Source: Geotalea daltonii FRC-32 (lineage in GTDB: Bacteria > Desulfobacterota > Desulfuromonadia > Geobacterales > Geobacteraceae). From it: DNA of 32,000 nucleotides. The notes beneath the pieces are model-generated. The model did not search any database and was not told where the DNA came from. It worked only from the letters and a program-made list of their open reading frames with translations. Every line of letters begins with the position of its first letter. Positions within the stretch are counted from its first letter, which is position 1. Shown here in pieces: positions 14,132 to 32,000 of this stretch. The stretch covers positions 300,001-332,000 of the forward strand of contig NC_011979.1 of NCBI RefSeq assembly GCF_000022265.1, given 5' to 3'. Made by a program: the position numbers and the translations under genes.

Positions 14132-14977
14132 TTGTTGAAATCTACCGGAACCGAATGTCTTGCATGGGCGCTTATCCCCAACCATTTCCATCTTCTGCTC
14201 CGTGCCGGCAATAGCGGCCTGCCAAATTTTATGAGACGGCTATTGACCGGCTATGCGATCACCTTCAATAAACGACATAACCGTGTCGGACATCTTTTTC
14301 AGAACCGCTACAAATCGATAGTTTGTGAAGAAGACCCATACCTTCTCGAACTGGTTCGTTACATACATCTGAACCAGCTGCGGGCGCGGATCGTAAAGAG
14401 TCTGGCCGAGCTAGACCGATATCCGTGGAGCGGTCACGCCGTAATCATTGGAAATCAGCAGTTGGAAGGAGAGCAAACGGAAGAGATTCTTGCTTATTTC
14501 GGCAAGCGCAAGAAAACGGCAATGAGCAAATATCGACAATTCGTTGCAGACGGCATAGGGCAGGGACGGCGTTCAGACCTGATTGGCGGCGGGTTGCGGC
14601 GCAGTCGGGGAAACACCATTGCGAGAGAACAAGTGGAAAGTTTCGACGAGCGGGTGCTAGGAAGCAGTGAATTTGTCGAATACCTGAGAAAAGAAAAGAA
14701 CATGCATGAGCGCTTGTCTTCAGGCTTGTCACTGGAACGCGTTGCCGAAAGCTTTGGCCTGACAGCAGATTCGCTGAGGAGAAGTGGTCGCATGCCACAG
14801 GTAGTAGAAGCGCGAGGAATGGTCTGCTATTTTGCGGTGCGAGAATTGGGCAAGAGTGGGACAGAGGTAGGTTCAGTTCTTAACATGAAGAGATCTGGAG
14901 TGTGTCTGGCGGCAAGGCGTGGTGAGAAGATAGTAGAGGAAAAACCGGAGATAAGGGAAAGGGTATTGGGGTGCTAG
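14132..14977 (+). CDS. IS200/IS605-like (REP-associated, RayT-like) HUH/Y1 transposase homolog with a C-terminal DnaA-C-like HTH, apparently 5'-truncated
   Basis: The HUH motif is LIPNHFHLLL and the Tyr motif is GHLFQNRYKS. The C-terminus resembles the DnaA C-terminal HTH (ERVAESFGLT...EARGMVCYFAVRELGKSGTEVGSVLNMKRSGV). The ORF begins with TTG just before the HUH strand and an in-frame TAA sits at 14117. The usual ~50-aa N-terminal beta-strands (YHV..RG) are therefore missing. Confidence 0.7.
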   Translation: MLKSTGTECLAWALIPNHFHLLLRAGNSGLPNFMRRLLTGYAITFNKRHNRVGHLFQNRYKSIVCEEDPYLLELVRYIHLNQLRARIVKSLAELDRYPWSGHAVIIGNQQLEGEQTEEILAYFGKRKKTAMSKYRQFVADGIGQGRRSDLIGGGLRRSRGNTIAREQVESFDERVLGSSEFVEYLRKEKNMHERLSSGLSLERVAESFGLTADSLRRSGRMPQVVEARGMVCYFAVRELGKSGTEVGSVLNMKRSGVCLAARRGEKIVEEKPEIRERVLGC

Positions 14978-20550: not shown

Positions 20551-22755
20551 ATGCATTACGAAGCAACTAAGCTCAACCACGGCTATGCCGGCCGCATTCT
20601 TACCATCGATCTCCCGTCCCGTGCCATTGAGGCGCCGATGCTTGATGAGCACGTCAGGGATTACTTTCTTGGCGGCCGGGGCCTCGGTTTGTACCTGTTA
20701 CACCAGAGTGTGACTTCAACCACCAGGGCCACTGATCCGGAAAACCCGTTGATTCTCGCCAACGGTCCTCTTGGGGGTATTCCCCAGTTTCCGGGCACGG
20801 CCAAGGCCATGGCGGTCTCCCTTTCCCCAATCACCGGCGTGCCCGGCGTTTCCAACTTTGGCGGCTATTTTGGCGCCTTCCTCAAATATGCGGGCTTCGA
20901 TGCCCTCAAGGTTACCGGCAAGGCGGGGCGCGACGTGATGATCATCATCGATGGCCTGAAACATCAGGTGGCTGTTGAAGAAATCGCCCATCTGGATGAG
21001 GCCTTCGATCTGGAGCGGATGATCGATGAACGCTATACCGGCCTGGGGATTGACCGCCGCCACATTGCCTTCATGTCTACCGGTATCGGCGCCGACCATA
21101 CCACCTTCGGCTGCATCAACAGCCATTATTTCGATATGACCAAGCCGACGCCGAACGGGCGAGGCATATACCGCACCAAACAGGCGGGGCGTACCGGCAT
21201 CGGCTCGGTGATGAGCGGCAAGGGCATCAGGGCCATAGTCGTGCTGGCTGCTTACCCCCAGGGTGAAAACCCCTATGGGGCGGCAGACTGGGAGCGGGCA
21301 AAGGATGCGGGTAAACGGCTGCACCAGGTGGTCAAGGAGGTGGATCCCACTTCCCTGCGCATGTCGCGCAAGGGGAGCGCCGGACTGATCACCTTCATGA
21401 GCAAGGATGAGTATCAATCGCTCCCGGTCAACAATTTTCAGGCAGGTTCCGACCCGCGAGCGCCGCAGATCTGCGGCTCCCATTACGAGGAGCATCTTTT
21501 CGAGCATCGTGGCATGGATGGCTGTTTTCCCGGATGCAACCTGCAGTGCAACAAGGGGGGATGGGTGACGTTGGTTTCCGGAGCCCACAAGGGGAGTCGG
21601 GTCTGGGTTGACGGCCCGGAGTATGAGACGGCCGCCGGCTTCGGCTCCAACCTGGGCATCTGGAATCCCGAGTTCATCCTGGAAGCCAACTGGCACTGCG
21701 ATAATTACGGCATCGACACCATCAGCACCGCCACCATCCTGGCCTTTGTCATGGAGTGCTTCCAGCGCGGGTTCCTGACCAGCGCCGCAGCCGATGGCCT
21801 TGAGCTTGCCTGGGGCAATGAGGGGGCAGCGCTGGAGTTTATCCACCGCCTGGCCCGCGGGCAGGGTGAGCTGTACAAGCAGGCAGGAGGGGGGATGCTT
21901 CCCCTGGTGGATTGGGTCGCCGCCGGTTGCAAGGCGAAAACCGGCAGGGATGTCAGGGGTGAACTGGACCTCTTCGCCATGCAGACCAAGGGCCTCCCCT
22001 TTTCCTTTTACCGCACCCATCGTTCCCTCTCCATGCAGGGATCCTACGCTGCCGCCAGCGACATCGGCGCCCACCACGCCGCTGCCTGGCTGATCAAGGC
22101 CGACCTGCTCGGCGCTTTTCCCACTTTCGAAGAAAAGGCCTGGGCTTTGATTTCCTATCCGCGGGTCAGGCTGGGGAACGACAACCTGGGACTGTGCAAG
22201 CTCCCATGGGTGGATGTCTTCAATCCCGAGTCGGCCAGGCGCACCGATACCGACATCCATATCAATCCTGCATCCCAGGAAATCTATGCCGACTTCTTCA
22301 ACAGCATGCTGGGCACCGACATGAGCTGGGAGGAAATTTTCGCCCAAACCGACCGGGACATCAACCTGCAGCGGGTGATGAACGTGGTGCGCTTCGGCGA
22401 CAAGACCAGAGCGTACGACTGGATTCCCGACCGGGCCATCGGGCCTACCGATGATGCCCTTTATGAAGGGGAAGGGGATTACAATGACGGCGAAGTGGCC
22501 GGTATACTCGGCGTATCCAGTGAGGAAGTGGCCGCCATGGCCACGTCCCGCAAGCGTATAGTCCTCATGGATTACCGCAAGCAGGAGCTGCAGCGGCTGA
22601 TTGATGTTTATTACGCGGAGCGTGGCTGGAACCGTGCCGGCATCCCCTTCATCGACACTCTGCAGGAACTGGGGCTCTGGAGCTACCTGACGGCCGAGAC
22701 CCAGGCAAAAATAGCCGGACTGCAGGAGATTGTCGAGATTGTCGCGCCGGCTTGA
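20551..22755 (+). CDS. aor: aldehyde:ferredoxin oxidoreductase family (tungsto/molybdopterin) enzyme, long form (734 aa)
   Basis: The AOR N-terminal domain is GYAGRILTIDL...YFLGGRGLGLYLL. The Cys cluster is GCFPGCNLQCNKGG. A GPEYET motif and a C-terminal AOR domain are present. Confidence 0.9.
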   Translation: MHYEATKLNHGYAGRILTIDLPSRAIEAPMLDEHVRDYFLGGRGLGLYLLHQSVTSTTRATDPENPLILANGPLGGIPQFPGTAKAMAVSLSPITGVPGVSNFGGYFGAFLKYAGFDALKVTGKAGRDVMIIIDGLKHQVAVEEIAHLDEAFDLERMIDERYTGLGIDRRHIAFMSTGIGADHTTFGCINSHYFDMTKPTPNGRGIYRTKQAGRTGIGSVMSGKGIRAIVVLAAYPQGENPYGAADWERAKDAGKRLHQVVKEVDPTSLRMSRKGSAGLITFMSKDEYQSLPVNNFQAGSDPRAPQICGSHYEEHLFEHRGMDGCFPGCNLQCNKGGWVTLVSGAHKGSRVWVDGPEYETAAGFGSNLGIWNPEFILEANWHCDNYGIDTISTATILAFVMECFQRGFLTSAAADGLELAWGNEGAALEFIHRLARGQGELYKQAGGGMLPLVDWVAAGCKAKTGRDVRGELDLFAMQTKGLPFSFYRTHRSLSMQGSYAAASDIGAHHAAAWLIKADLLGAFPTFEEKAWALISYPRVRLGNDNLGLCKLPWVDVFNPESARRTDTDIHINPASQEIYADFFNSMLGTDMSWEEIFAQTDRDINLQRVMNVVRFGDKTRAYDWIPDRAIGPTDDALYEGEGDYNDGEVAGILGVSSEEVAAMATSRKRIVLMDYRKQELQRLIDVYYAERGWNRAGIPFIDTLQELGLWSYLTAETQAKIAGLQEIVEIVAPA

Positions 22756-22821: not shown

Positions 22822-23286
22822 ATGAAGAAAATAGTTGCCGTTACAGCCGGTTTGGCCCTTCTGGCCTTTGCCGGGGTTGCCTCTGCTGCGGAGATTAATG
22901 CCGATTTTTCTCCAACTGATGCAATTATGAAAAAAGAACAGGCGCTGAAAGAGCAAGCTGCCAAAAAAGAAGCGGACCTGAAGGCAAAACAGACAGAGGC
23001 AGCGGAAAAGGCCAAGAAACAAGAAGCGGACCTGAAAGCCAAAAAGACCGAGCTGACCGATAAGGCGAAGAAGAAAGAAACAGAGCTGAAGGACGCCAAG
23101 AAGAAGCAGGATGAAAAATCTGCCGAGTCGAAGAAAAAGCGGCAGGAGCAGATCGATGCTGCCAAAAAGAAGAAGCAGGAGCGGATCGACGCACTGAAAA
23201 AGAAAAAAGAGCAGACGGTGAAGGATGTCAAGGATGCGAAGGAGCAGACCAGAAAGGATATCAATGAGCTGAAGGAAGTAAAATAG
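22822..23286 (+). CDS. secreted Lys-rich coiled-coil repeat protein
   Basis: The signal peptide is MKKIVAVTAGLALLAFAGVASA. It is followed by repeated K-E-A-D-L-K-A-K-type units (KKEADLKAKQTE / KKQEADLKAKKTE / KKKETELKDAKKK). A GAGGGAGG SD is present. Confidence 0.7.
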   Translation: MKKIVAVTAGLALLAFAGVASAAEINADFSPTDAIMKKEQALKEQAAKKEADLKAKQTEAAEKAKKQEADLKAKKTELTDKAKKKETELKDAKKKQDEKSAESKKKRQEQIDAAKKKKQERIDALKKKKEQTVKDVKDAKEQTRKDINELKEVK

Positions 23287-23308
23287 GCAAAGCTCACTGG
23301 ATAGGATG

Positions 23309-23348
23309 AAAAAAAGAGCCCGTCGGCATTGTCGGCGGGCTCTTTTTT
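23309..23348. terminator. bidirectional rho-independent terminator
   Basis: The sequence is AAAAAAA-GAGCCCGTCGG-cattg-TCGGCGGGCTC-TTTTTT. The stem is about 12 bp including 2 G.U pairs. An A-run and a T-run flank it, and it sits between convergent genes. Confidence 0.85.
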
Positions 23349-23367
23349 GCGGGATAGCAAAGACGCT

Positions 23368-25329
23368 TCAGAAAGAAATGCCGAATTCTCTCATTTTCCG
23401 ATAAAGAGTATTGCGGCCGATACCAAGCTTGGCCGCGGCTTTCTGGATATTGCCCTGGTAGAAGGCCAGTGCATCGACAATCATATCGCATTCCACTTCG
23501 CGTAACGACCTGATTTCCTTCACCACCGGTGCGGCAATTACCGGCTTCACGGCCTGGGCTGCCTGCATCTCAAGCAGCTCTGCTGTCAGAACGCCGCCAA
23601 TTCCCGCTCTAATGACAGCCCGCTCAATGGCATTTTCCAGCTCCCTGATGTTGCCGGGCCAGCCATGGGACACCACCTTTTCCATGAAGCTGTTGCCGAC
23701 CGCCGGCACGTCCCGGCCAAGTTTTGCCGCCATTTTCTCTATCAGGTGTGCGGTAATCACGGGCAGGTCTTCTCTCCGCTCACGCAAAGGCGGAATATTG
23801 ATTTCCAGTACGTTGAGCCGGTAGTAGAGGTCCTGCCGGAATCTGCCGCCACGGACCTCCTCCGCCAAATCCTTGTGGGTGGCGGCGATTACCCTAATGT
23901 CCACCGGCCGCTCGTTGGCGGAACCGATGCGGGAGACCTTCTTTTCCTGAATTACCCGTAAAAGCTTGGCCTGCACATTGGCGGACATGTCACCGATCTC
24001 ATCGAGGAACAGCGTGCCGCCATCGGCGACCTCGAATTTACCGGCCTGGCCTCCCTTGCGGGCACCGGTGAAGGTGCCTTCCTCGTAGCCGAACAGCTCG
24101 CTCTCGATGAGACTTTCCGGCAGGGCGGCGCAATTAAGTGCGATGAACTGACGGTCACCCCTTGGGCTGGCATGGTGTATGGCCTGGGCAAATAATTCCT
24201 TGCCCGTACCGCTTTCTCCCCTGATGAGGACGGTGGAGAGGCTGGCGGCGGCAAGTTTTGCCCACTCCTTGACAGCAGTAATGGCCGGGCTGGCGCCGAT
24301 GATGTTGTCGAAGGTGTAGCAGTGGGACTGGAGGATGGTGGGGCGCCTGACCGGCTGCCTGTTGTTCATTTCGCGAAAGACGGCAACGGCGCCGATGGTG
24401 CCACCGGTATCATCCCGCAGCAGCGTCGCCGAGCTGTAAATCTTCCGTCCCAGCTTCTCGATGATGATCTCGCGGTCCTCGTATTCGGTTCCCTCGGAGA
24501 GCACCTGCAGAAGGGTGTTCCGGGCATTATAGATCTGCTCCACGTGGCGGCCTTTGGCCAGTGTCGGATTGCAGCCGAGAATCTCGCCAGCCTTGGCGTT
24601 CATTTCCGTGATGATGCCGTTGTTGTTGATGGAGATAAGGCCGTCGGACATGTTTTCCAGCAGGGTATTGGAATAGCGGTAGGCCATGTAGAGCTTGTCG
24701 GTGGCCTTCTGCAGGCGGAGCTGGTTTTCGATGGCGTTGACCGCGGCCACAACCATGCCCAGGGTATGGGCATTGGCGACGCGATAATCGCCGCTGATGT
24801 CGAGGATGCCGATCGCCTCTCCTTCGGGATTGAAGATGGGGGCGGCGGAGCAGGTTAGGAAATGGTTGGATTTGCAGTAATGTTCCCAGGCATAGATCTG
24901 CACCGGCTTCTTCTCGACGATGGCGGTGCCGATGGCGTTGGTCCCCTGCTGGGACTCACTCCAGTTGCCCCCCGGGCAGAGCAGGACCTGGCGGGTGCGG
25001 TTGACTATTTCATTGTCCCCCAGTACCTCCAGCAGGTATCCGAGCTCGTCGGTGAGCACGACCTGGAAACCGGACCCCTTGACGAAATTGTAGAGGTTGT
25101 CCATGAACGGGCGGGCGACCTTGAGGAGATGCTGTTTGTGGTAGATCCGCTCCCTCAGTTCCAGTTGATTGACGTGGCCATCAGCTTCCTGGAAAGGATT
25201 GACGTTGAGATGGCGGCAACGCTGCCATGAACTGGCCACCTCCGGGCGCAACAGTTGAACGTCGAGCTCGTGAGTCTCAACGTAGCGATGCCAGGTTTTC
25301 TGCATTGTCAACAGTTTTTTTGGTGCCAT
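23368..25329 (-). CDS. sigma-54-dependent transcriptional activator, AcoR-like (GAF-PAS-AAA+-Fis HTH)
   Basis: Walker A is GESGTGKE. The sigma-54 contact loop GTFTGA is a GAFTGA variant. It also has FLDEIGDM and the C-terminal [24 protein letters not shown]. The N-terminal region is GAF-like, followed by a PAS segment ([17 protein letters not shown]). Confidence 0.92.
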
Positions 25330-25566
25330 CTGCTCCGGTTTCCTAATTATGCAGAAAGTCGCATGTTTTAATTAAATTATCGGCTTTTGCCGGTGAATTT
25401 GTCAACCGGATTCTTTTCTGGTTTTCTTCAGACTTTTGACGCTATTACAGTTAGTTATGCGTTACGACATTCCTTGTGCCTGCCCGGCCAGCTTTTTCCC
25501 TCACATTTGCTAAACTATAATTGTTTTCAGGCAATCTGTCCCAAGCGGGGGGGAACTTTAACCGTG

Positions 25567-26713
<1,147 letters not shown>

Positions 26714-26730
<17 letters not shown>

Positions 26731-27946
26731 TGCGGGGGAGGACTGGGATGCCCAGCGGGAGAAGATCATCGGCCTGGGGGAACGTTCCCTGCGCAAGACC
26801 TATTACCCGGAGCTTCAGCAGAAGCTTGACGAGCTGGAAAGATTCCGCTCGCTCCTGGATGAGAGCAATGACTGCATCTTTCTTTTCCAGGTACCGTCCT
26901 TCGCTTTTGTCGATGTCAACGAATCCGCCTGTCGGCAACTGGACTGTCCCCGGGAAAAATTCCTCTCCCTCAGCCTCGAAAATCTCGTTCCCGTAGAAGA
27001 CCTGCTGCGTATCAGGCAGCTGGCCACGGCTGCTATCACTGACGGTAGAGACAAAGGCACCATCATGACCCAGCTGAACAAGTGTTCCGGTGGCGAGTTT
27101 CCGGCAGAGATCACTATCAGAATCGTCAACCTGAATAAGGCCTGCTACGGCGTGGCGGTGGCTCGCGACATAACAGAGCGGCTGCAGGCCCAGAAGGTGC
27201 TGCTGGAGAATTCCCGCATGCTGCGCGACATGGAACTGGCCCGGCAGATCCAACTATCCCTGCTGCCCGGCGCTCCTCCCCGGGTGCCAGGAGTGCGGCT
27301 CGCAGGATGCTGTGTTCCGGCGACCCACGTGGGGGGAGACTATTACGATTACTACATACGGGAAAAAGGCACCCTCGATCTGGTCGTTGCCGATGTGTCA
27401 GGACACAGCATCGGTGCCGCGCTGATGACGGCAGAAGCCAGGTCCGTCCTTCGCGCCCAGTTTCATTCATCCCCTAGCGCCGGCAAGCTTCTGGCCTATC
27501 TTAACGACGTCCTCTATGACGACCTGAACCGGGCGGGGCTTTTCATCACACTCTTTTATGTGAAGTACGATCCGGAAAGCCGCATGCTTGCCTATGCAAA
27601 TGCCGGTCATGTCTCACCGTTGCTGTTGCGTCCCCCGGAGGTTTCCTGCCGCAAGCTGGATGCGGAAGGGCTGATCATCGGTGTCAGGGAGGATGAGACT
27701 TACGAAGAAAAAGAGCTGCAGATGCAGCCGGGAGATCTGCTTGTGCTTTATACGGACGGTATCACCGAAGCACAGAACAGTGCAGGTGAAATGTTCGGGT
27801 TCAGCCGGCTGTGCAGTATCGTTTCTGCCATCAGCTCCAACCCCCCGGAGGATGTGGTATCCATCGTACTGGAGCAATTAGCCGGTTTTACCGGCACTAC
27901 GGCCCTGGAGGACGATGTGACCATGATCGTCATGAAAGTGATCTGA
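26714..27946 (+). CDS. PAS-domain PP2C/SpoIIE-type serine phosphatase (RsbU/RsbP-like)
   Basis: It has an N-terminal PAS segment. The PP2C motifs are GGDYYDY, VADVSGHSIGAALM, LYTDGITEAQN and DDVTMIVMKV. Its ATG lies 17 nt inside the end of the adh gene. Confidence 0.85.
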
Positions 27947-29072
27947 GTCTCCTCGCCCCTTCATTTGCCCCAAGTCCTTCCTCTGCAATCCGGTCGATCC
28001 CATCGAAATCAATGACTTTCTCTGCCGAAGAACAGATCAGCTCGATTTTTTCCTCATCCTCAACGCTGATCTTGGAGATATGCCCGGTAATGGTGGAAAA
28101 AACATCGGCCGTGGACTGGAAAATTCGGATATAGGGGATGCCGCTGGCATCGAGGATGCGCTGGGTTATGGCCGATACCGGAGCCTGTCCGGGAATGACC
28201 AGGCCGGCGATCTTTTCCCGGTAGGCTGGGATGTGATAGAGGGATGACAGGGTAACGATCAGTTCATCCCTGGAGCTGGTGGTGATGAGAAGGGTCGATT
28301 GGGCCAGAAGATCAATGACCTTCTGGGAAGAGGCGGCGCCGAGCTGGACATGGTGGACGATGCGGCTGCGTGCCGCACCGTCACCGCAAAGTGGGTGATC
28401 GAGGAGCCTGGCGATGTGGTTGAGGGTCGGGTTAGCCAGGATCGGTGAGTAATCGAAAGCAGCCGTCACCGGCAGGTGAAGAGGGGCGAAGGCCTTGGTC
28501 AAATAGCCGAGGGAAATCTCCCTTTTTTCCGGCAGCAGCTTGTTGACCATGAGTAGCCTGACCGGGCTTGCCTCCGCCCGGTAGAGGGGGAGATTGAGCA
28601 GGACCGAATCGATGACGTTGCCGATGCCGCCGCCGCTCACCATCAGCACCGGCGCATTGCACAGACTGGCCACCCGGCCGTTGCTGAGTCCCACCACCGA
28701 GCCGACTCCGCCGTGCCCGGCCCCCTCGATTACCAGAAAATCGTACTTCCTTTCCATTTCCCGACAGGCAGCAAGTAGTCTCCCTTCAAGTTCGGCGGTG
28801 GTAAGTTGGCCGTCGAGAAAACGCTTGGTGGAGCCTCTGCCAAGGACAACCGGGGACATGAGGCGGATATCTTCCTCCATGTCGAACACCCGGGCCATCA
28901 GCGCCGCGTCCTTGTCAACGATACAGCCGTTGAATTCCTGGCACTTGGGCCCGATGGCCTTGATGAAGCCGACCCGCTTGTACCGCTGCCGTGCCAGGTG
29001 GACCAGCGAGAGGCTGATGGTGGTCTTACCGGTATTCTGGCCGGTTGCGGCAATAAAGATTTTTCTGCACAT
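27930..29072 (-). CDS. BioD/CobQ-like P-loop plus DRTGG-type domain protein (resembles the N-terminal half of long phosphotransacetylases)
   Basis: The P-loop is FIAATGQNTGKTT, followed by FLVIEGAGHGGVG. The C-terminal half (LLITTSSRDELI...GLVIPGQ) is DRTGG-like. No PTA catalytic domain is present. Confidence 0.7.
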   Translation of the reverse strand: MCRKIFIAATGQNTGKTTISLSLVHLARQRYKRVGFIKAIGPKCQEFNGCIVDKDAALMARVFDMEEDIRLMSPVVLGRGSTKRFLDGQLTTAELEGRLLAACREMERKYDFLVIEGAGHGGVGSVVGLSNGRVASLCNAPVLMVSGGGIGNVIDSVLLNLPLYRAEASPVRLLMVNKLLPEKREISLGYLTKAFAPLHLPVTAAFDYSPILANPTLNHIARLLDHPLCGDGAARSRIVHHVQLGAASSQKVIDLLAQSTLLITTSSRDELIVTLSSLYHIPAYREKIAGLVIPGQAPVSAITQRILDASGIPYIRIFQSTADVFSTITGHISKISVEDEEKIELICSSAEKVIDFDGIDRIAEEGLGANEGARRLRSLS

Positions 29073-29122
29073 GGCTTCAGTGATTCTCCCTCTGACCGCA
29101 GACGGTTAAAATGTCGCCATCC

Positions 29123-30502
29123 TCAGTCCAAACATCTGAATACCCCCGAGCTCCATAGACAGCTCCCGCAGGGTTCCGTATTCACGTAGCAATCCCGCTC
29201 GAACTCGTCCTTCTGCACCAGGTCGCAGGGGGAACAGTTGCAGCCGGAGCACGAAGGGTAGTCATGGTGCAGGACGTTTTCCCGGAAGGTGCGGAACTCG
29301 CAGCTATTCCATATTTCCAGGATGCCCCGCTGGCTGACATTGCCGAACGACCTGGGCTTGATTGGATGCAGCCAGCCGTTGGCAAAGGACTGGCACCGGT
29401 GCCAGAGGTGATAGCACGGGTGCATCTTACCGTCCCAGGAGACGAAAGCTCCTCCCTGCTCAACAAAAGCGCAGCCTCTTTTTTCACGCCGCACCACTTC
29501 AGGAAGCCTCAGGTCCAGGCCGACCCTCCTGGCCACCCTCATCGCCTCATCAAAGACGGCCATGGTCACGCCGATCTGGCTATAATCCATGGCAAAAAGC
29601 CTTTTCAGATCAAGGGTAATGCCCCGGTCGCCGGCATCGGTCTTCATGGCGTCGACAAAATCAACGACCTGCTGCTCATCGGCAGTCTTGGCGTATTTCC
29701 AGAGAATTCTGAAATAGCTGAGCATGTCCACGCCGATGGTATCGGCCTTGGATTTCCAGGTCTGGAAGATCTGGATCGCCTCATCGGTGCAGGTGTCATA
29801 GGCACACTGCTCAAGGTGAGGCTCATGGAACGGGTGAAGGTGGGAGACAATGGCGAAACTTGCCCCACGTGCCGCAGCCCATTCCAGTGCCGGCGGAAGT
29901 TCCCGGATGTTGTCCCTCATGACAACGAATTCCACGCCAATTTCCAGGTCGTGGCGCCCGCAGACAGTCCTGGCTGCGGCAAGGGCCTCGAATGCCCACT
30001 GCAGGTCCAGCAGCTGACTGCCGGTGCGGATGCTGCCGAAGGTGGTACTGTCCACTCCGTCCATGGAGAGACAGATCCTGTCGAGACCGGCATCGAGCAG
30101 GGTCATGGCCCTCATGTTGGTTAGCAGAAGGCCATTGCTCTGGAAACCGATCCAGCCGTGGGACGGCATCAACTTTTTCGCCCGGGTGATGAACTGTTCC
30201 AGGCGGGAGTTGAGCAGAGGCTCACCTACACCATTGAGTACCAGGGCATTCAGATTGGGCAGGGCCGGTTCCAGGGCAGAAAAGGTGCCCATGTCCAGAT
30301 CGCCATCCCCCGTGCCACCATCATTTTGTTTCATGCACATGACGCAGCTCAGGTTGCAGCGGCTGGTGGTCTCGACGAAAAGCCTGGACGGGTAAGGCAG
30401 CAGGGCCGAATCGACCGCCGGGTACCGTTGTTCAAGTGTCATGGCGGCAGTGCAGTTTTGCATGGTCATCCTTATGTCGATCGGGCAGAAACCTCCGGCC
30501 AC
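29123..30502 (-). CDS. radical SAM enzyme with a C-terminal SPASM/twitch-type auxiliary-cluster domain
   Basis: The CX3CX2C motif is TSRCNLSCVMC. The SPASM-like part is C-x13-G-x4-C (CAFVEQGGAFVSWDGKMHPC), followed by CSGCNCSPC and CGSC. The start is uncertain. GTG 30502 has no SD and lies 3 nt after an upstream TAA. ATG 30463 is preceded by AAGGA. Confidence 0.85.
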   Translation of the reverse strand: MAGGFCPIDIRMTMQNCTAAMTLEQRYPAVDSALLPYPSRLFVETTSRCNLSCVMCMKQNDGGTGDGDLDMGTFSALEPALPNLNALVLNGVGEPLLNSRLEQFITRAKKLMPSHGWIGFQSNGLLLTNMRAMTLLDAGLDRICLSMDGVDSTTFGSIRTGSQLLDLQWAFEALAAARTVCGRHDLEIGVEFVVMRDNIRELPPALEWAAARGASFAIVSHLHPFHEPHLEQCAYDTCTDEAIQIFQTWKSKADTIGVDMLSYFRILWKYAKTADEQQVVDFVDAMKTDAGDRGITLDLKRLFAMDYSQIGVTMAVFDEAMRVARRVGLDLRLPEVVRREKRGCAFVEQGGAFVSWDGKMHPCYHLWHRCQSFANGWLHPIKPRSFGNVSQRGILEIWNSCEFRTFRENVLHHDYPSCSGCNCSPCDLVQKDEFERDCYVNTEPCGSCLWSSGVFRCLD

Positions 30503-30505
30503 TGT

Positions 30506-30655
30506 TTAGGCGATCATGGCCATGCAGTTGGGGCAGCTCACGCAAGTGGCGCCGGGTTCTCTTTGGAGGGCCTTGGGTAAGCAGCCCTCAGATGTGCAGC
30601 GACATGTCCGTGCCGTGGGACAACTCCCACTGCTGCCGCAGGAGGGTGAAAGCAT
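30506..30655 (-). CDS. candidate Cys-rich micro-ORF (49 aa if it starts at ATG 30655): MLSPSCGSSGSCPTARTCRCTSEGCLPKALQREPGATCVSCPNCMAMIA
   Basis: It is not in the track because it is under 60 aa. It has 8 Cys. Its last 26 codons fill the 85-nt RHH-rSAM gap and 21 of them have G/C at the third position. The TAA sits 3 nt before the GTG that opens the rSAM frame. The 5' part overlaps the RHH gene in another frame and lacks a good SD, so the true start and even its reality are uncertain. Confidence 0.25.
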   Translation of the reverse strand: MLSPSCGSSGSCPTARTCRCTSEGCLPKALQREPGATCVSCPNCMAMIA

Positions 30656-30782
30656 CCCGCATGAGGTCCGCTGCGGACAGATTGGTCATTTCCATGATCT
30701 GGCGGAACTTGTCCATCTCCTCATCTGTGACGCGCATGGAAACGATATAGGGCTTTCTCGGGTTGTTGTACTTCCTTGCCAT
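30588..30782 (-). CDS. small ribbon-helix-helix (CopG/MobC-like) protein, 64 aa
   Basis: I prefer the ATG at 30782 (MARKYNNPRKPYIVSMRVTDEEMDKF...), 9 nt after AAGGAGG. The track start at 30806 is a TTG. The pattern is beta-strand IVSMRVT followed by two helices, and it is a paralog of 7349-7537. Confidence 0.6.
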   Translation of the reverse strand: MARKYNNPRKPYIVSMRVTDEEMDKFRQIMEMTNLSAADLMRDAFTLLRQQWELSHGTDMSLHI

Positions 30783-30850
30783 CTCTTCTTCCTCCTTCTC
30801 AGACAACCAGCAACCTTAAAATTGAAGATTGCTGCTGGAAATGGGCAGAG

Positions 30851-30865
30851 GCAATTTCGGTACCA
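30851..30865 (-). promoter_or_regulatory. sigma-54 (-24/-12) promoter for the RHH / rSAM-SPASM / DRTGG operon
   Basis: The minus strand reads TGGTACCGAAATTGC. The GG-N10-GC spacing is exact and the -12 box is TTGC. It lies about 70 nt upstream of the ATG at 30782. Confidence 0.6.
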
Positions 30866-31170
30866 ACACCCATTACGCACGCAGACCGGGTGGCCGCCCA
30901 GATGGGTCGAGCCGTTGAATACAGGGGAATGGGACGCTTTTCCCGGGAGTGTTGAAAAGAAGGTAGGGGGAGTTTTTACCGCCGGCAAGAGTGAATGGGA
31001 GCGTTCCAGACTATGACATGTGCTCCATTATGGAACAGTCCACGTGTGCCATTTCAGAACAAAGTTCATTAAACAAAGATTGCCAGGGGGCAGTCGTTGA
31101 GGTCCAACCGCCTATTTTTACAGCTGCTTGCCCCATATGTTTCCAGAAATATGGTGGCTGGTAAAATTGT

Positions 31171-31185
31171 TGGTATAGGGTTTGC
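31171..31185 (+). promoter_or_regulatory. sigma-54 (-24/-12) promoter for the second Fe-ADH gene
   Basis: TGGTATAGGGTTTGC has exact GG-N10-GC spacing and a TTGC -12 box. It lies about 100 nt upstream of the ATG at 31287. Confidence 0.55.
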
Positions 31186-31286
31186 GGTATAGTAAAAAAA
31201 CGTTTTAGAAAACCGTATGCAGGAGATGGTTCAAGGCACAAAAAACCAATGTGGTTGATTCCACAAAATACAAAGGAGGAGCAACA

Positions 31287-32000
31287 ATGGCATTAGCAGA
31301 ACAGACGTACGGATTTTTCATTCCAACAGTTTCATTGATGGGGATAGGTTGCTCCAAGGAAACGGGGGCCCAGGCCAAGGCGCTGGGTGCGACGAACCTG
31401 CTCATTGTCACTGACGCCGGTCTGTCCAAGATGGGGGTCGCCGACAAGATCAAGGCCCAGCTGGTGGAAGCCGGTCTGAAAGCGGTAATTTTCGACGGCG
31501 CCGAGCCCAACCCCACCGACAAGAACGTCCATGATGGCGTCAAGGTCTACCTGGACAGCAAGTGTGACGGGATCGTTTCCCTGGGTGGCGGCAGCTCCCA
31601 TGACTGCGGCAAGGGGATCGGCCTGGTCATCGGCAATGGCGGCAACATCCGCGACTTCGAAGGGGTCAACAAGTCCACCAAGCCCATGCCCCCGTTCCTG
31701 GCCATCAATACCACCGCCGGCACCGCTTCCGAGATGACCCGCTTCTGCATCATCACCAACACCGATACCCATGTGAAGATGGCCATCGTCGACTGGCGCT
31801 GCACACCGAACATTGCCATTAACGATCCGGTCCTCATGGTGGGCAAACCCCCCGCACTCACCGCTGCCACCGGTATGGACGCCCTGACCCATGCCGTTGA
31901 GGCCTACGTCTCCACCATCGCCACCCCCATTACCGATGCCTGCGCCATCAAGGCAATTGAGCTGGTCGCCGCCAATCTGAGCGTGGCCGTAGCCAACGGC
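31287..32000 (+). CDS. iron-containing alcohol dehydrogenase (DhaT/methanol-DH-like group III ADH), 3'-truncated by the window edge
   Basis: It is absent from the track because it has no stop in the window. The ATG at 31287 lies 7 nt after AAAGGAGGA. All 238 codons to nt 32000 are open, beginning MALAEQTYGFFIPTVSLMGIGC. The motifs are LIVTDAGL, FDGAEPNPT, SLGGGSSHDCGKGIG, INTTAGTASEMTRFCIIT and TGMDALTHAVEAYVS. Confidence 0.92.
   Translation, partial: MALAEQTYGFFIPTVSLMGIGCSKETGAQAKALGATNLLIVTDAGLSKMGVADKIKAQLVEAGLKAVIFDGAEPNPTDKNVHDGVKVYLDSKCDGIVSLGGGSSHDCGKGIGLVIGNGGNIRDFEGVNKSTKPMPPFLAINTTAGTASEMTRFCIITNTDTHVKMAIVDWRCTPNIAINDPVLMVGKPPALTAATGMDALTHAVEAYVSTIATPITDACAIKAIELVAANLSVAVANG

What the first reader, a model, noticed from the sequence alone, without database searches (positions are those of the whole stretch)
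27930..30865. Sigma-54-driven operon: RHH protein, Cys-rich micro-ORF, radical SAM/SPASM enzyme, BioD-like/DRTGG protein
Seen in sequence: a well-spaced sigma-54 promoter (TGGTACCGAAATTGC) precedes four tightly packed minus-strand reading frames. The frames are a 64-aa RHH protein, a Cys-rich short frame that fills the only gap, a CX3CX2C radical SAM with a SPASM-type C-terminal Cys domain, and a P-loop plus DRTGG protein lacking any Pta catalytic domain. Established knowledge: SPASM-domain radical SAM enzymes are mostly peptide or protein maturases (sactipeptides, PQQ, mycofactocin, anSME). I know of no characterised system that pairs one with a DRTGG/BioD-like protein and an RHH gene under sigma-54 control. 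The operon is embedded between two Fe-ADH genes, an AcoR-like activator, a PP2C phosphatase and an AOR. It could therefore make a modified peptide or cofactor, or mature one of these redox enzymes, as part of alcohol/aldehyde metabolism. As a competing explanation, I recall an NCBIfam/TIGRFAM family named roughly 'tungsten cofactor oxidoreductase radical SAM maturase', found next to AOR-family genes. I cannot verify membership here, and the AOR is about 7 kb away.
Basis: partly seen in the sequence, partly recalled or inferred. Interest (0 to 1): 0.82.

Follow-up and report, generated by a model that had tools for sequence, protein, structure and literature searches.

The report
Radical-SAM operon beside tungsten aldehyde oxidoreductase
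This is a three-gene accessory operon (small DNA-binding protein, radical SAM enzyme of an already curated "putative metalloenzyme maturase" family, and a Pta-N-terminal-like ATPase) that belongs to a conserved sigma-54-controlled ethanol/acetaldehyde-oxidation gene cluster of Geobacter relatives; it is not a new peptide-modification system.

Summary
The window is Geotalea (Geobacter) daltonii. Three of the four reported frames are real genes. They are a 64-aa RHH protein, a 446-aa radical SAM/SPASM enzyme and a 380-aa AAA_26+DRTGG protein. The Cys-rich micro-ORF is an out-of-frame reading of the RHH gene and is not conserved even in 83-89%-identical relatives.

The rSAM scores 654.6 bits on NCBIfam TIGR04311 ("radical SAM/SPASM family putative metalloenzyme maturase", cutoff 400). 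It falls below the cutoff of the sister family TIGR04317, the tungsten-cofactor oxidoreductase maturase.

The sigma-54 site is not significant on its own. It is, however, conserved at a fixed position in 23 of 24 orthologous loci and paired with a second, divergent sigma-54 site for an Fe-ADH gene.

That Fe-ADH is followed, just beyond the window end, by a Moco/W-co riboswitch and a tungsten-type AOR. In most relatives the operon reads moaA-mosC-RHH-(etfBA-FeS oxidoreductase)-rSAM-(nfnAB)-(DRTGG). RHH-rSAM is the recurrent core. The DRTGG gene is a facultative visitor and lies elsewhere in many genomes.

Most likely role: maturation or support of the adjacent W-AOR/ADH ethanol module. The chemistry is unknown. 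This is a known family, and interest is modest.

The parts
30851..30865 (-). Sigma-54 -24/-12 promoter element TGGTACCGAAATTGC, 69 nt upstream of the RHH start codon
   Evidence: Sequence read and matched. An element TGGTA[CT][CT][GA]A[AT]ATTGC sits at the same relative position (about 390-460 nt from the Fe-ADH start) in 23 of 24 orthologous loci across Geotalea, Geomonas, Citrifermentans and Geobacter MAGs. As a single-sequence match it is not above chance.
31171..31185 (+). Second, divergent sigma-54 -24/-12 element TGGTATAGGGTTTGC, about 100 nt upstream of the Fe-ADH gene
   Evidence: A TGG[TC]A[CT]-N5-TTGC element lies 69-114 nt upstream of the Fe-ADH start in 24 of 24 loci.
30998..31075 (.). 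Conserved GTTC/GAAC-type inverted repeats between the two promoters (for example GGAGCGTTCCA / TGGAACAGTCC). They are candidate activator (UAS) sites.
   Evidence: Inverted repeat I3. The block is conserved in the 5-locus alignment, including the distant L027 and L028. The enriched 9-mers GTTCTGAAA, ACTGTTCCA and CGTTCCACA occur in 8-10 of 24 intergenic regions. Binding is inferred, not shown.
30588..30782 (-). 64-aa ribbon-helix-helix protein, first gene of the operon
   Evidence: The window protein gives only weak hits: RHH_1 17.4 bits, below the 20.5 gathering score. Among 11 orthologues, 7 match RHH_1 (best E 1.9e-6) and 8 match NikA-like (best 2.3e-7). An HMM finds it in 23 of 25 orthologous loci with enough flank, and directly upstream of the rSAM in 15 of 49 paralogous loci.
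30506..30655 (-). Cys-rich 49-aa frame reported as a micro-ORF; judged not to be a gene
   Evidence: It overlaps the RHH gene by 68 nt in another frame. tblastn matches only residues 1-24, the overlapping part. The start is lost in L002, the frame is truncated in L001, and the gap length is not conserved. No family hit.
29123..30463 (-). 446-aa radical SAM/SPASM enzyme, member of NCBIfam TIGR04311 (putative metalloenzyme maturase)
   Evidence: TIGR04311 scores 654.6 bits (cutoff 400) over profile positions 1-423 of 423. TIGR04317 scores 227 (cutoff 380) and MoaA 57. Pfam SPASM and Radical_SAM both match. It is 100% identical to P0001, 446 aa. The C-terminal Cys residues are invariant across 25 homologues.
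27930..29072 (-). 380-aa AAA_26 (BioD-like P-loop, GKT intact) + DRTGG protein, homologous to the N-terminal half of class II phosphotransacetylase and lacking the catalytic domain
   Evidence: AAA_26 scores 91.3 bits and DRTGG 29.0 bits. PRK05632 Pta profile positions 1-369 of 708 match at E 1.9e-29, and BioD falls below its cutoff. Orthologues are 65-90% identical across Geobacteraceae. Genomic location is variable.
31287..32000 (+). Fe-dependent alcohol dehydrogenase (5' part; runs off the window), first gene of the divergent adh-riboswitch-aor operon
   Evidence: Translation. The full 387-aa Fe-ADH is on the identical contig L081. It is followed there by a Moco/W-co riboswitch (RF01055, 62.5 bits) and an AOR 92% identical to the AFOR_N/AFOR_C protein of L001.
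23368..25329 (-). Sigma-54 enhancer-binding protein (MimR_N-GAF-PAS-AAA+-HTH_8), candidate activator of both promoters
   Evidence: Domain hits. A 70-76% identical orthologue lies immediately downstream of the rSAM in L003, L010 and L016. The regulatory link is inferred.
25567..27946 (+). ErcA-type regulatory Fe-ADH (25567..26730) overlapping a PAS-PP2C/SpoIIE phosphatase (26714..27946); convergent with the operon
   Evidence: NF041833 Fe_ADH_ErcA scores 614.8 bits (cutoff 550). PAS and SpoIIE-type hits. The same arrangement occurs in L001 and L002.

Best explanation
The three genes are the reduced Geotalea daltonii version of a conserved, sigma-54-dependent accessory operon. It is transcribed divergently from the ethanol-oxidation operon adh (Fe-ADH) - Moco/W-co riboswitch - aor (tungsten-type aldehyde:ferredoxin oxidoreductase).

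In most Geobacteraceae the accessory operon reads moaA-mosC-RHH-(etfB-etfA-FeS oxidoreductase)-rSAM-(nfnA-nfnB)-(DRTGG protein). It therefore bundles pterin-cofactor synthesis, electron-transfer modules and the rSAM.

Shown:
- The gene set, its conservation and its family membership.
- The paired, conserved sigma-54 elements.
- The adjacent riboswitch-controlled AOR.

Inferred:
- An AcoR/MimR-like activator fires both promoters when alcohol or aldehyde is present.
- The RHH protein binds DNA and tunes the operon. It forms a recurrent module with the rSAM.
- The TIGR04311 rSAM cleaves SAM at its CX3CX2C cluster and, with its SPASM auxiliary clusters, performs a radical step. That step would be needed to make an active W-pterin AOR, acting on the cofactor or the apo-enzyme, by analogy with its sister family TIGR04317.
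- The AAA_26+DRTGG protein is a nucleotide-binding, Pta-N-terminal-like regulatory or accessory protein of acetyl/acetate metabolism. It is only facultatively parked in this cluster and is not a partner of the rSAM.

The confidence given (0.45) is for the mechanistic core, that is, the rSAM serving W-AOR or W-cofactor maturation. That the locus is a member of this conserved cluster and of family TIGR04311 I hold at about 0.9.
For: - Family: TIGR04311 scores 654.6 bits against a cutoff of 400. The next best is TIGR04317 at 227 bits, then MoaA at 57.
- Synteny in 32 orthologous loci. AOR+Fe-ADH lie divergent in 24, moaA-mosC at the head in 17-18, etfBA/FeS oxidoreductase in about 19 and nfnAB in about 13.
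- The window contig continues into a Moco/W-co riboswitch and an AOR. The riboswitch lies between adh and aor in 7 of 7 other loci tested.
- Sigma-54 elements are conserved in 23 of 24 and 24 of 24 loci.
- The activator is adjacent to the rSAM in L003, L010 and L016.
- RHH is present in 23 of 25 orthologous loci and 15 of 49 paralogous loci.
- The Gmet_1046/Gmet_1045 ADH+W-AOR pair is the recognised ethanol route in G. metallireducens (PMC7324539). moaD and moeB lie beside it (PMC2700814).
- DRTGG is not conserved with the rSAM. A standalone AAA+DRTGG gene lies next to pta-ack in Desulfovibrio vulgaris (PMC4481167).
Against: - No member of TIGR04311 or TIGR04317 has been characterised in any paper I could find. 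'Maturase' is a curator's inference.
- Paralogues at 48-56% identity lie beside NAD-dependent aldehyde dehydrogenases, Fe-ADHs, porins and ferredoxin/FAD modules more often than beside AORs. The family-wide common theme is alcohol/aldehyde catabolism rather than tungsten enzymes specifically.
- The Pelobacter carbinolicus genome paper links three paralogous rSAM oxidoreductases to alcohol clusters, not to its four aorA genes (PMC3543383). I could not test whether they belong to this family.
- A direct RHH-rSAM-DRTGG trio recurs in at least one other genome (L087), so some functional link of DRTGG to the cluster cannot be excluded.
- No transcript data were available.
Confidence: 0.45

Rival explanations
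1. The rSAM serves alcohol/aldehyde catabolism in a way that does not involve the tungsten AOR. It might activate or repair the Fe-dependent alcohol dehydrogenase, or act as an rSAM oxidoreductase on a small alcohol or aldehyde-derived molecule. The RHH-rSAM pair would be a portable module that plugs into different catabolic clusters.
For: - In 18 paralogous loci with full flanks, neighbours within 3 kb include Aldedh (4), Fe-ADH (2), AOR (2), porins (3) and sigma-54 activators (3).
- Fer4_22 plus FAD/NAD modules precede RHH-rSAM in L050, L059 and L066.
- Two Fe-ADH genes flank the operon in the window.
- The best solved-structure hit is BtrN, an rSAM dehydrogenase (E 1e-7).
- P. carbinolicus rSAM paralogues lie next to diol/alcohol clusters (PMC3543383).
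Against: - Fe-ADHs and NAD-dependent ALDHs are not known to need radical maturation (established knowledge).
- An rSAM that consumes SAM on every turnover is implausible as a catabolic enzyme.
- In the orthologous group the operon carries moaA and mosC and faces a riboswitch-controlled AOR.
- The nearest named family is the W-cofactor oxidoreductase maturase.
Confidence: 0.25
2. RHH, rSAM and the BioD-like/DRTGG ATPase form one dedicated three-protein system that builds a new cofactor or modification.
For: - The three genes are co-oriented with short gaps and no internal terminator.
- The same direct trio occurs in a second genome, followed by a MoCF_biosynth gene (L087).
- DRTGG follows the cluster, after nfnAB, in 7 other orthologous loci.
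- BioD-type P-loop enzymes activate carboxylates with ATP (established knowledge).
- In L050 a ParA-like P-loop gene follows the rSAM.
Against: - Most orthologous loci lack DRTGG within 10 kb.
- MAG SMAG_U430 has the full cluster (L020), but its 83%-identical DRTGG gene lies in an unrelated housekeeping neighbourhood.
- G. sulfurreducens, Geobacter sp. AOG2 and sp. DSM 9736 keep the DRTGG orthologue in unrelated contexts.
- The protein's closest homology is to the regulatory N-terminal half of class II Pta.
Confidence: 0.08
3. A RiPP-type system: the rSAM/SPASM enzyme cross-links a small Cys-rich peptide encoded in the RHH-rSAM gap, or modifies the 64-aa RHH protein itself.
For: - SPASM enzymes are mostly peptide or protein maturases (established knowledge).
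- A small gene immediately upstream of the rSAM is the typical RiPP layout.
- The 49-aa frame has 9 Cys.
Against: - The micro-ORF is lost or truncated in relatives whose RHH and rSAM proteins are 83-89% identical to those of the window, and the gap is not conserved.
- The RHH family has RHH/NikA-like profile hits and no conserved Cys or C-terminal core.
- In about 19 loci three ETF genes separate RHH from the rSAM.
- All RiPP-maturase models score far below their cutoffs.
Confidence: 0.03

Closest known systems
NCBIfam TIGR04311 (rSAM_Geo_metal), 'radical SAM/SPASM family putative metalloenzyme maturase'
   Same: Full-length match at 654.6 bits against a cutoff of 400. Hundreds of 57-83%-identical homologues carry this name in JGI and NCBI records. 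The taxonomic range is the same: Geobacteraceae and Desulfuromonadales.
   Different: Nothing differs at the sequence level; the protein is a member. The family itself has no experimentally defined substrate.
NCBIfam TIGR04317, 'tungsten cofactor oxidoreductase radical SAM maturase'. From my own memory, not verified here: this family is related to the cmo gene next to aor in Pyrococcus furiosus.
   Same: It is the closest named relative, at 227 bits versus 57 or less for all other families. Like that family's name implies, the gene sits beside an AOR-family gene.
   Different: The score is below the 380-bit cutoff. The profile is 349 positions long against 423 for TIGR04311, which is consistent with extra sequence between the rSAM core and the SPASM domain. 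Here the AOR lies in a divergent operon, not directly adjacent.
MoaA (GTP 3',8-cyclase)
   Same: An rSAM core with a C-terminal auxiliary cluster, a weak match (57 bits; PDB 1tv7/2fb2 at E about 7e-7), and a pterin-cofactor context.
   Different: It scores far below the cutoff (284). A bona fide moaA is encoded in the same operon in 17-18 orthologous loci, so the two are not redundant.
Class II phosphotransacetylase N-terminal region, and the standalone AAA+DRTGG protein DVU3031 of the Desulfovibrio vulgaris pta-ack lactate-oxidation cluster (PMC4481167)
   Same: The same AAA_26+DRTGG two-domain architecture without a PTA_PTB domain. It is also located in a cluster that oxidises a fermentation product to acetate.
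   Different: No function has been shown for either protein. The Walker A Lys-Thr is intact here. Association with the cluster is facultative.
Pelobacter carbinolicus rSAM oxidoreductase triad Pcar_1394/2515/2884 and riboswitch-controlled aorA genes (PMC3543383)
   Same: Paralogous rSAM genes of unknown substrate linked to alcohol/diol clusters in a related organism. AOR genes there also sit behind Moco riboswitches.
   Different: I could not test whether the Pcar proteins belong to TIGR04311. In that genome they are not reported next to aorA.

Membership tests
TIGR04311 radical SAM/SPASM putative metalloenzyme maturase | Whole-protein HMM score above the curated cutoff (400 bits), full-length alignment | tested here: met
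   654.6 bits, E 6.7e-197, residues 37-458 of the 459-aa frame against profile positions 1-423 of 423.
TIGR04311 radical SAM/SPASM putative metalloenzyme maturase | CX3CX2C radical SAM cluster motif and a Cys-rich C-terminal SPASM domain | tested here: met
   The motif C-NLS-C-VM-C is present. PF04055 scores 30.0 bits and PF13186 52.1 bits. C331, C350, C357, C405, C408, C413, C425, C432, C435 and C444 are invariant in 25 homologues.
TIGR04311 radical SAM/SPASM putative metalloenzyme maturase | Acts as a maturase of a metalloenzyme (the function implied by the name) | not testable with these tools
   Only context supports it: AOR, moaA, mosC and the Moco riboswitch. No literature was found.
TIGR04317 tungsten cofactor oxidoreductase radical SAM maturase | HMM score above the curated cutoff (380 bits) | tested here: not met
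   227 bits in two stretches.
TIGR04317 tungsten cofactor oxidoreductase radical SAM maturase | Encoded next to an AOR-family (tungsten cofactor) oxidoreductase | tested here: met
   The AOR gene starts about 2.0 kb from the RHH start, in the divergent adh-aor operon. The Fe-ADH+AOR pair is present in 24 orthologous loci.
rSAM/SPASM RiPP maturase systems (sactipeptide, ranthipeptide, mycofactocin, PQQ, GeoRSP) | A conserved precursor-peptide gene adjacent to the maturase | tested here: not met
   The micro-ORF is not conserved. The RHH protein has no conserved core or Cys.
rSAM/SPASM RiPP maturase systems (sactipeptide, ranthipeptide, mycofactocin, PQQ, GeoRSP) | Score above the cutoff of any curated peptide-maturase model | tested here: not met
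   PqqE 45.8 (cutoff 381), MftC 33.4 (265), GeoRSP 23.6 (400), WgkB 44.1 (650).
MoaA (GTP 3',8-cyclase) | Score above the curated cutoff | tested here: not met
   57 bits against 284. A separate moaA lies in the same operon in relatives.
Ribbon-helix-helix (CopG/Arc/MetJ) DNA-binding proteins | Match to the RHH profile over the beta-strand and two helices | tested here: inconclusive
   The window protein scores 17.4 bits on RHH_1, below the 20.5 gathering score. Of 11 orthologues, 7 match RHH_1 (best E 1.9e-6) and 8 match NikA-like (best 2.3e-7). There is no hit to solved structures. DNA binding was not tested.
Class II phosphotransacetylase | N-terminal AAA_26 + DRTGG region | tested here: met
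   PF13500 91.3 bits and PF07085 29.0 bits. PRK05632 profile positions 1-369 of 708 match at E 1.9e-29.
Class II phosphotransacetylase | C-terminal PTA_PTB catalytic domain | tested here: not met
   No PTA_PTB hit. The protein ends at residue 380, and 102.8 bits is far below the 418 cutoff.
Dethiobiotin synthase BioD | Score above the curated cutoff | tested here: not met
   TIGR00347 scores 35.8 bits against 83.3. PDB BioD hits are only E about 4e-4.
Sigma-54-dependent promoter | GG-N10-GC core (TGGxxx-N5-TTGC) at a suitable distance from the first gene | tested here: met
   TGGTACCGAAATTGC lies 69 nt before the ATG. It is conserved in 23 of 24 orthologous regions. Its count in the window is not above chance.
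Sigma-54-dependent promoter | A cognate enhancer-binding protein and upstream activator sites | tested here: inconclusive
   The activator gene lies 5 kb away in the window and is adjacent to the rSAM in L003, L010 and L016. Conserved inverted repeats lie between the promoters. Binding was not tested.
Sigma-54-dependent promoter | An rpoN-dependent transcription start | not testable with these tools
   No transcript data were available.

The most novel reading that the evidence does not exclude
The RHH-TIGR04311 pair is a portable two-gene module whose rSAM carries out a still unknown radical step. That step would be required to make active tungsten-pterin aldehyde oxidoreductase, acting on the cofactor or on the apo-enzyme. 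If so, this would be the first biochemical function for the Cmo/TIGR04317/TIGR04311 clade. It would also show that W-AOR maturation needs more than the standard Moco pathway.
Probability: 0.35. Interest if true: 0.6.

Novelty: new member of a known kind. Interest (0 to 1): 0.3.

Why it matters
The finding places an uncharacterised but widespread rSAM family (hundreds of Geobacteraceae and Desulfuromonadales sequences) in a well-defined setting. That setting is a sigma-54-controlled ethanol/acetaldehyde module with a riboswitch-gated tungsten AOR and its own moaA/mosC.

Geobacter species can be manipulated genetically. The cluster therefore offers a clean place to ask what the AOR-linked rSAM 'maturases' do, a question that the literature I could search leaves open.

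For genome annotation, three lessons follow:
- The trio is not a new system.
- The Cys-rich micro-ORF should not be called.
- The DRTGG protein should not be read as an rSAM partner.

Tried and rejected
- **Micro-ORF as precursor peptide.** Rejected after tblastn and frame-by-frame comparison in 11 loci.
- **RHH as RiPP precursor.** Rejected: an HMM alignment of 38 homologues shows a conserved RHH core and a variable, Cys-free tail.
- **RNA element in the 124-nt RHH-rSAM gap.** No Rfam hit in the window, and the fold z-score is -1.1.
- **Sigma-54 motif statistics within the window.** Not significant. My first pattern had the wrong spacing.
- **Greedy ORF calling and clustering of neighbours.** It was noisy because of long antisense ORFs in GC-rich DNA. 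I replaced it with tblastn using defined queries and with Pfam counts over neighbour ORFs.
- **Profile search of the RHH family against solved structures.** Only chance-level hits.
- **Literature searches** for a characterised AOR-linked rSAM, for cmo, and for TIGR04311/TIGR04317. They returned nothing relevant.
- **A hidden recurrent DRTGG-rSAM link.** In G. sulfurreducens the DRTGG gene lies beside a geopeptide maturase on the opposite strand. That is an unrelated rSAM family, so I judged it a coincidence.
- **Not attempted.** Structure prediction of the rSAM or the DRTGG protein, because fold matches would not identify the substrate.

Full report
**Source and anatomy**

The 446-aa rSAM is 100% identical to a database protein found on a 4,304,501-bp contig. 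That contig size, the style of the source's protein name and the nearest relatives (Geotalea sp. SG265 and G. toluenoxydans, 83% identity) lead me to infer that the window is Geotalea (Geobacter) daltonii; the organism name itself was not returned by any tool. An independent contig, L081, is identical to window 23091-32000 and extends 2,262 nt further.

The minus strand carries three genes:
- a 64-aa gene at 30782..30588;
- the rSAM at 30463..29123. The annotated and homologue-supported start gives 446 aa, not the 459-aa GTG frame;
- a 380-aa gene at 29072..27930.

The gaps are 124 nt and 50 nt. No terminator-like site lies inside the operon.

**The micro-ORF is not a gene**

- The 49-aa Cys-rich frame (30655..30506) overlaps the RHH gene by 68 nt in another reading frame.
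- In Geotalea toluenoxydans (L002; RHH 89% identical) the ATG is gone and the downstream part is unrelated.
- In Geotalea sp. SG265 (L001) the frame stops at the RHH stop codon.
- In other loci the RHH-rSAM spacer is 18-300 nt, with no shared frame.
- The spacer has no Rfam match and no unusual fold.

**What the proteins are**

*rSAM.* It scores 654.6 bits on NCBIfam TIGR04311, 'radical SAM/SPASM family putative metalloenzyme maturase' (cutoff 400), over the whole profile.
- The next family is TIGR04317, 'tungsten cofactor oxidoreductase radical SAM maturase', at 227 bits, below its cutoff of 380.
- MoaA follows at 57 bits.
- All peptide-maturase models are far below their cutoffs.
- The CX3CX2C motif, the SPASM domain and ten invariant C-terminal cysteines are present.

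*The 64-aa protein.* On its own it gives only weak RHH hits. Its orthologues match RHH_1 and NikA-like profiles down to E 2e-7. An alignment of 38 homologues shows the strand-helix-helix core and a variable tail without Cys.

*The 380-aa protein.* It is AAA_26 + DRTGG with an intact GKT. It aligns to the first 369 positions of the 708-position class II Pta profile, lacks the catalytic domain and is not BioD.

**Comparative context**

I collected 80 loci encoding relatives of the rSAM and mapped defined query proteins onto them.

Orthologues (58-83% identity, 32 loci) share one layout:
- An AOR and an Fe-ADH lie on one strand.
- Divergent from them is an operon that in most genomes reads moaA-mosC-RHH-(etfB-etfA-CCG-type FeS oxidoreductase)-rSAM-(nfnA-nfnB)-(DRTGG).

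Counts are as follows:

| Feature | Loci |
|---|---|
| Fe-ADH with or without AOR | 24 |
| moaA-mosC | 17-18 |
| ETF genes | about 19 |
| nfnAB | about 13 |
| DRTGG on the same strand | 7, plus the window |

G. daltonii has the shortest version, RHH-rSAM-DRTGG.

On L081 the Fe-ADH that starts at window 31287 is followed by two features:
- a Moco/W-co riboswitch (RF01055, 62.5 bits; window-equivalent 32665-32779);
- an AOR 92% identical to the AFOR_N/AFOR_C protein of L001, starting about 0.8 kb beyond the window end.

The riboswitch lies between adh and aor in all 7 other loci tested. The relevant AOR is much closer.

Published work treats the orthologous pair Gmet_1046/Gmet_1045 as the ethanol route of G. 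metallireducens (PMC7324539). It also places moaD and moeB beside that pair (PMC2700814).

**Promoter**

- TGG-N8-TTGC occurs 6 times in the window against 7.5 expected, so the site is not significant alone.
- Two of the six hits fall in the 504-nt adh-RHH intergenic region, each pointing at its gene.
- The same pair is found at the same relative positions across genera, whether the first gene is RHH or moaA. The count is 23 of 24 loci towards RHH/moaA and 24 of 24 towards adh.
- GTTC/GAAC-type inverted repeats between the two sites are also conserved.
- A sigma-54 activator (MimR_N-GAF-PAS-AAA+-HTH_8) lies 5 kb away in the window. It lies directly after the rSAM in L003, L010 and L016.

I regard the sigma-54 promoter as well supported by phylogenetic footprinting, although it is untested experimentally.

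**Which genes really belong together**

*RHH and rSAM.* An RHH HMM finds the small gene in 23 of 25 orthologous loci with enough upstream sequence. It also finds it immediately upstream of the rSAM in 15 of 49 paralogous loci (48-56% identity) that sit in quite different neighbourhoods. RHH-rSAM is therefore the recurrent core.

*DRTGG.* It is not part of that core.
- nfnAB separates it from the rSAM in the two closest relatives.
- Most loci lack it.
- One MAG has the full cluster (L020), but its 83%-identical DRTGG gene lies among housekeeping genes.
- G. sulfurreducens, Geobacter sp. AOG2 and sp. DSM 9736 keep it in unrelated places.
- The direct trio does recur once more (L087), there followed by a MoCF_biosynth gene. 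A loose functional tie to the cluster therefore remains possible.
- A standalone AAA+DRTGG gene next to pta-ack in Desulfovibrio vulgaris (PMC4481167) fits a role in acetate/acetyl-phosphate metabolism.

**Mechanism, with its limits**

Shown: family membership, synteny, the riboswitch-gated AOR and the conserved promoters.

Inferred:
- The activator switches on both operons.
- RHH binds DNA.
- The rSAM performs a radical step needed for an active W-pterin AOR.
- DRTGG is a nucleotide-binding accessory protein unrelated to the rSAM chemistry.

The maturase inference has two weaknesses:
- No TIGR04311 or TIGR04317 member has been studied in any paper I could find.
- Paralogues sit next to NAD-dependent aldehyde dehydrogenases, Fe-ADHs, porins and ferredoxin/FAD modules at least as often as next to AORs. 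P. carbinolicus rSAM paralogues are likewise reported beside alcohol clusters (PMC3543383).

I therefore give about 0.45 to 'AOR/W-cofactor maturation' and 0.25 to a non-AOR role in alcohol/aldehyde catabolism. The three-protein-system and RiPP readings get small values.

**Verdict**

The promoter is real by conservation.

The interpretation as an unprecedented pairing is not upheld. The rSAM is a member of a curated family that annotation pipelines already name. The operon is the trimmed version of a conserved ethanol/aldehyde-oxidation supercluster, and the DRTGG adjacency is lineage-specific.

What remains open and worthwhile is the chemistry of this rSAM clade. Interest is 0.3, and the novelty class is 'new member of a known kind'.

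Noticed in passing
L081:1484-1598 (-), window-equivalent about 32665-32779, just beyond the window end: A Moco/W-co riboswitch (RF01055, 62.5 bits) lies between the Fe-ADH and the AOR. The same arrangement occurs in 7 of 7 other loci tested, and some loci carry two or three copies further downstream (L002, L014, L015).
   Followed up: partly
window 25567-27946 (+): An ErcA-type 'regulatory' Fe-ADH (NF041833, 614.8 bits, cutoff 550) overlaps a PAS-PP2C/SpoIIE phosphatase gene by 17 nt. Its stop overlaps the DRTGG gene's stop, and the two genes are convergent. The pair looks like an alcohol-sensing regulatory module next to the sigma-54 activator.
   Followed up: partly
window 20551-22755 (+) and 22822-23286 (+): A long (734-aa) AOR-family protein, only about 25% identical to the 576-aa ethanol-cluster AOR. 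It is followed by a 154-aa protein whose N-terminus looks like a signal peptide and which has no family hit. Both are conserved in L001 and L002.
   Followed up: no
L084:5446-9723 (Geobacter sulfurreducens): The DRTGG orthologue is flanked, on the opposite strand, by a geopeptide precursor (TIGR04229) and its rSAM maturase (TIGR04280, 561.6 bits), plus another rSAM. I judged this a coincidence, but it is a second case of DRTGG lying next to rSAM genes.
   Followed up: partly
L014:7690-11600: Two TIGR04311-type rSAM genes lie close together on the same strand: the orthologue (70% identity to the window protein) and a paralogue (55% identity) starting about 2.5 kb after the orthologue's start. 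The RHH-rSAM spacer in this locus holds a short dinucleotide-type repeat that translates as LPLPLP/FTFTFT.
   Followed up: no
L050:324-5505; L059:7707-9985; L066:5143-7305: In paralogous loci the RHH-rSAM pair is preceded by a Fer4_22 protein and a FAD/NAD-binding 2Fe-2S protein. In L050 it is followed by a ParA/AAA_31-type P-loop protein. This hints that the module travels with its own ferredoxin/NAD(P)H electron-supply genes.
   Followed up: partly
window 14132-14977 (+): A 281-aa ORF with a weak, below-cutoff match to REP-associated tyrosine transposase (45.3 bits, cutoff 80).
   Followed up: no
L015:17097-17173 (+): A c-di-GMP-I riboswitch hit (39.1 bits, gathering score 35) downstream of the DRTGG gene in a Desulfuromonadaceae MAG.
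   Followed up: no
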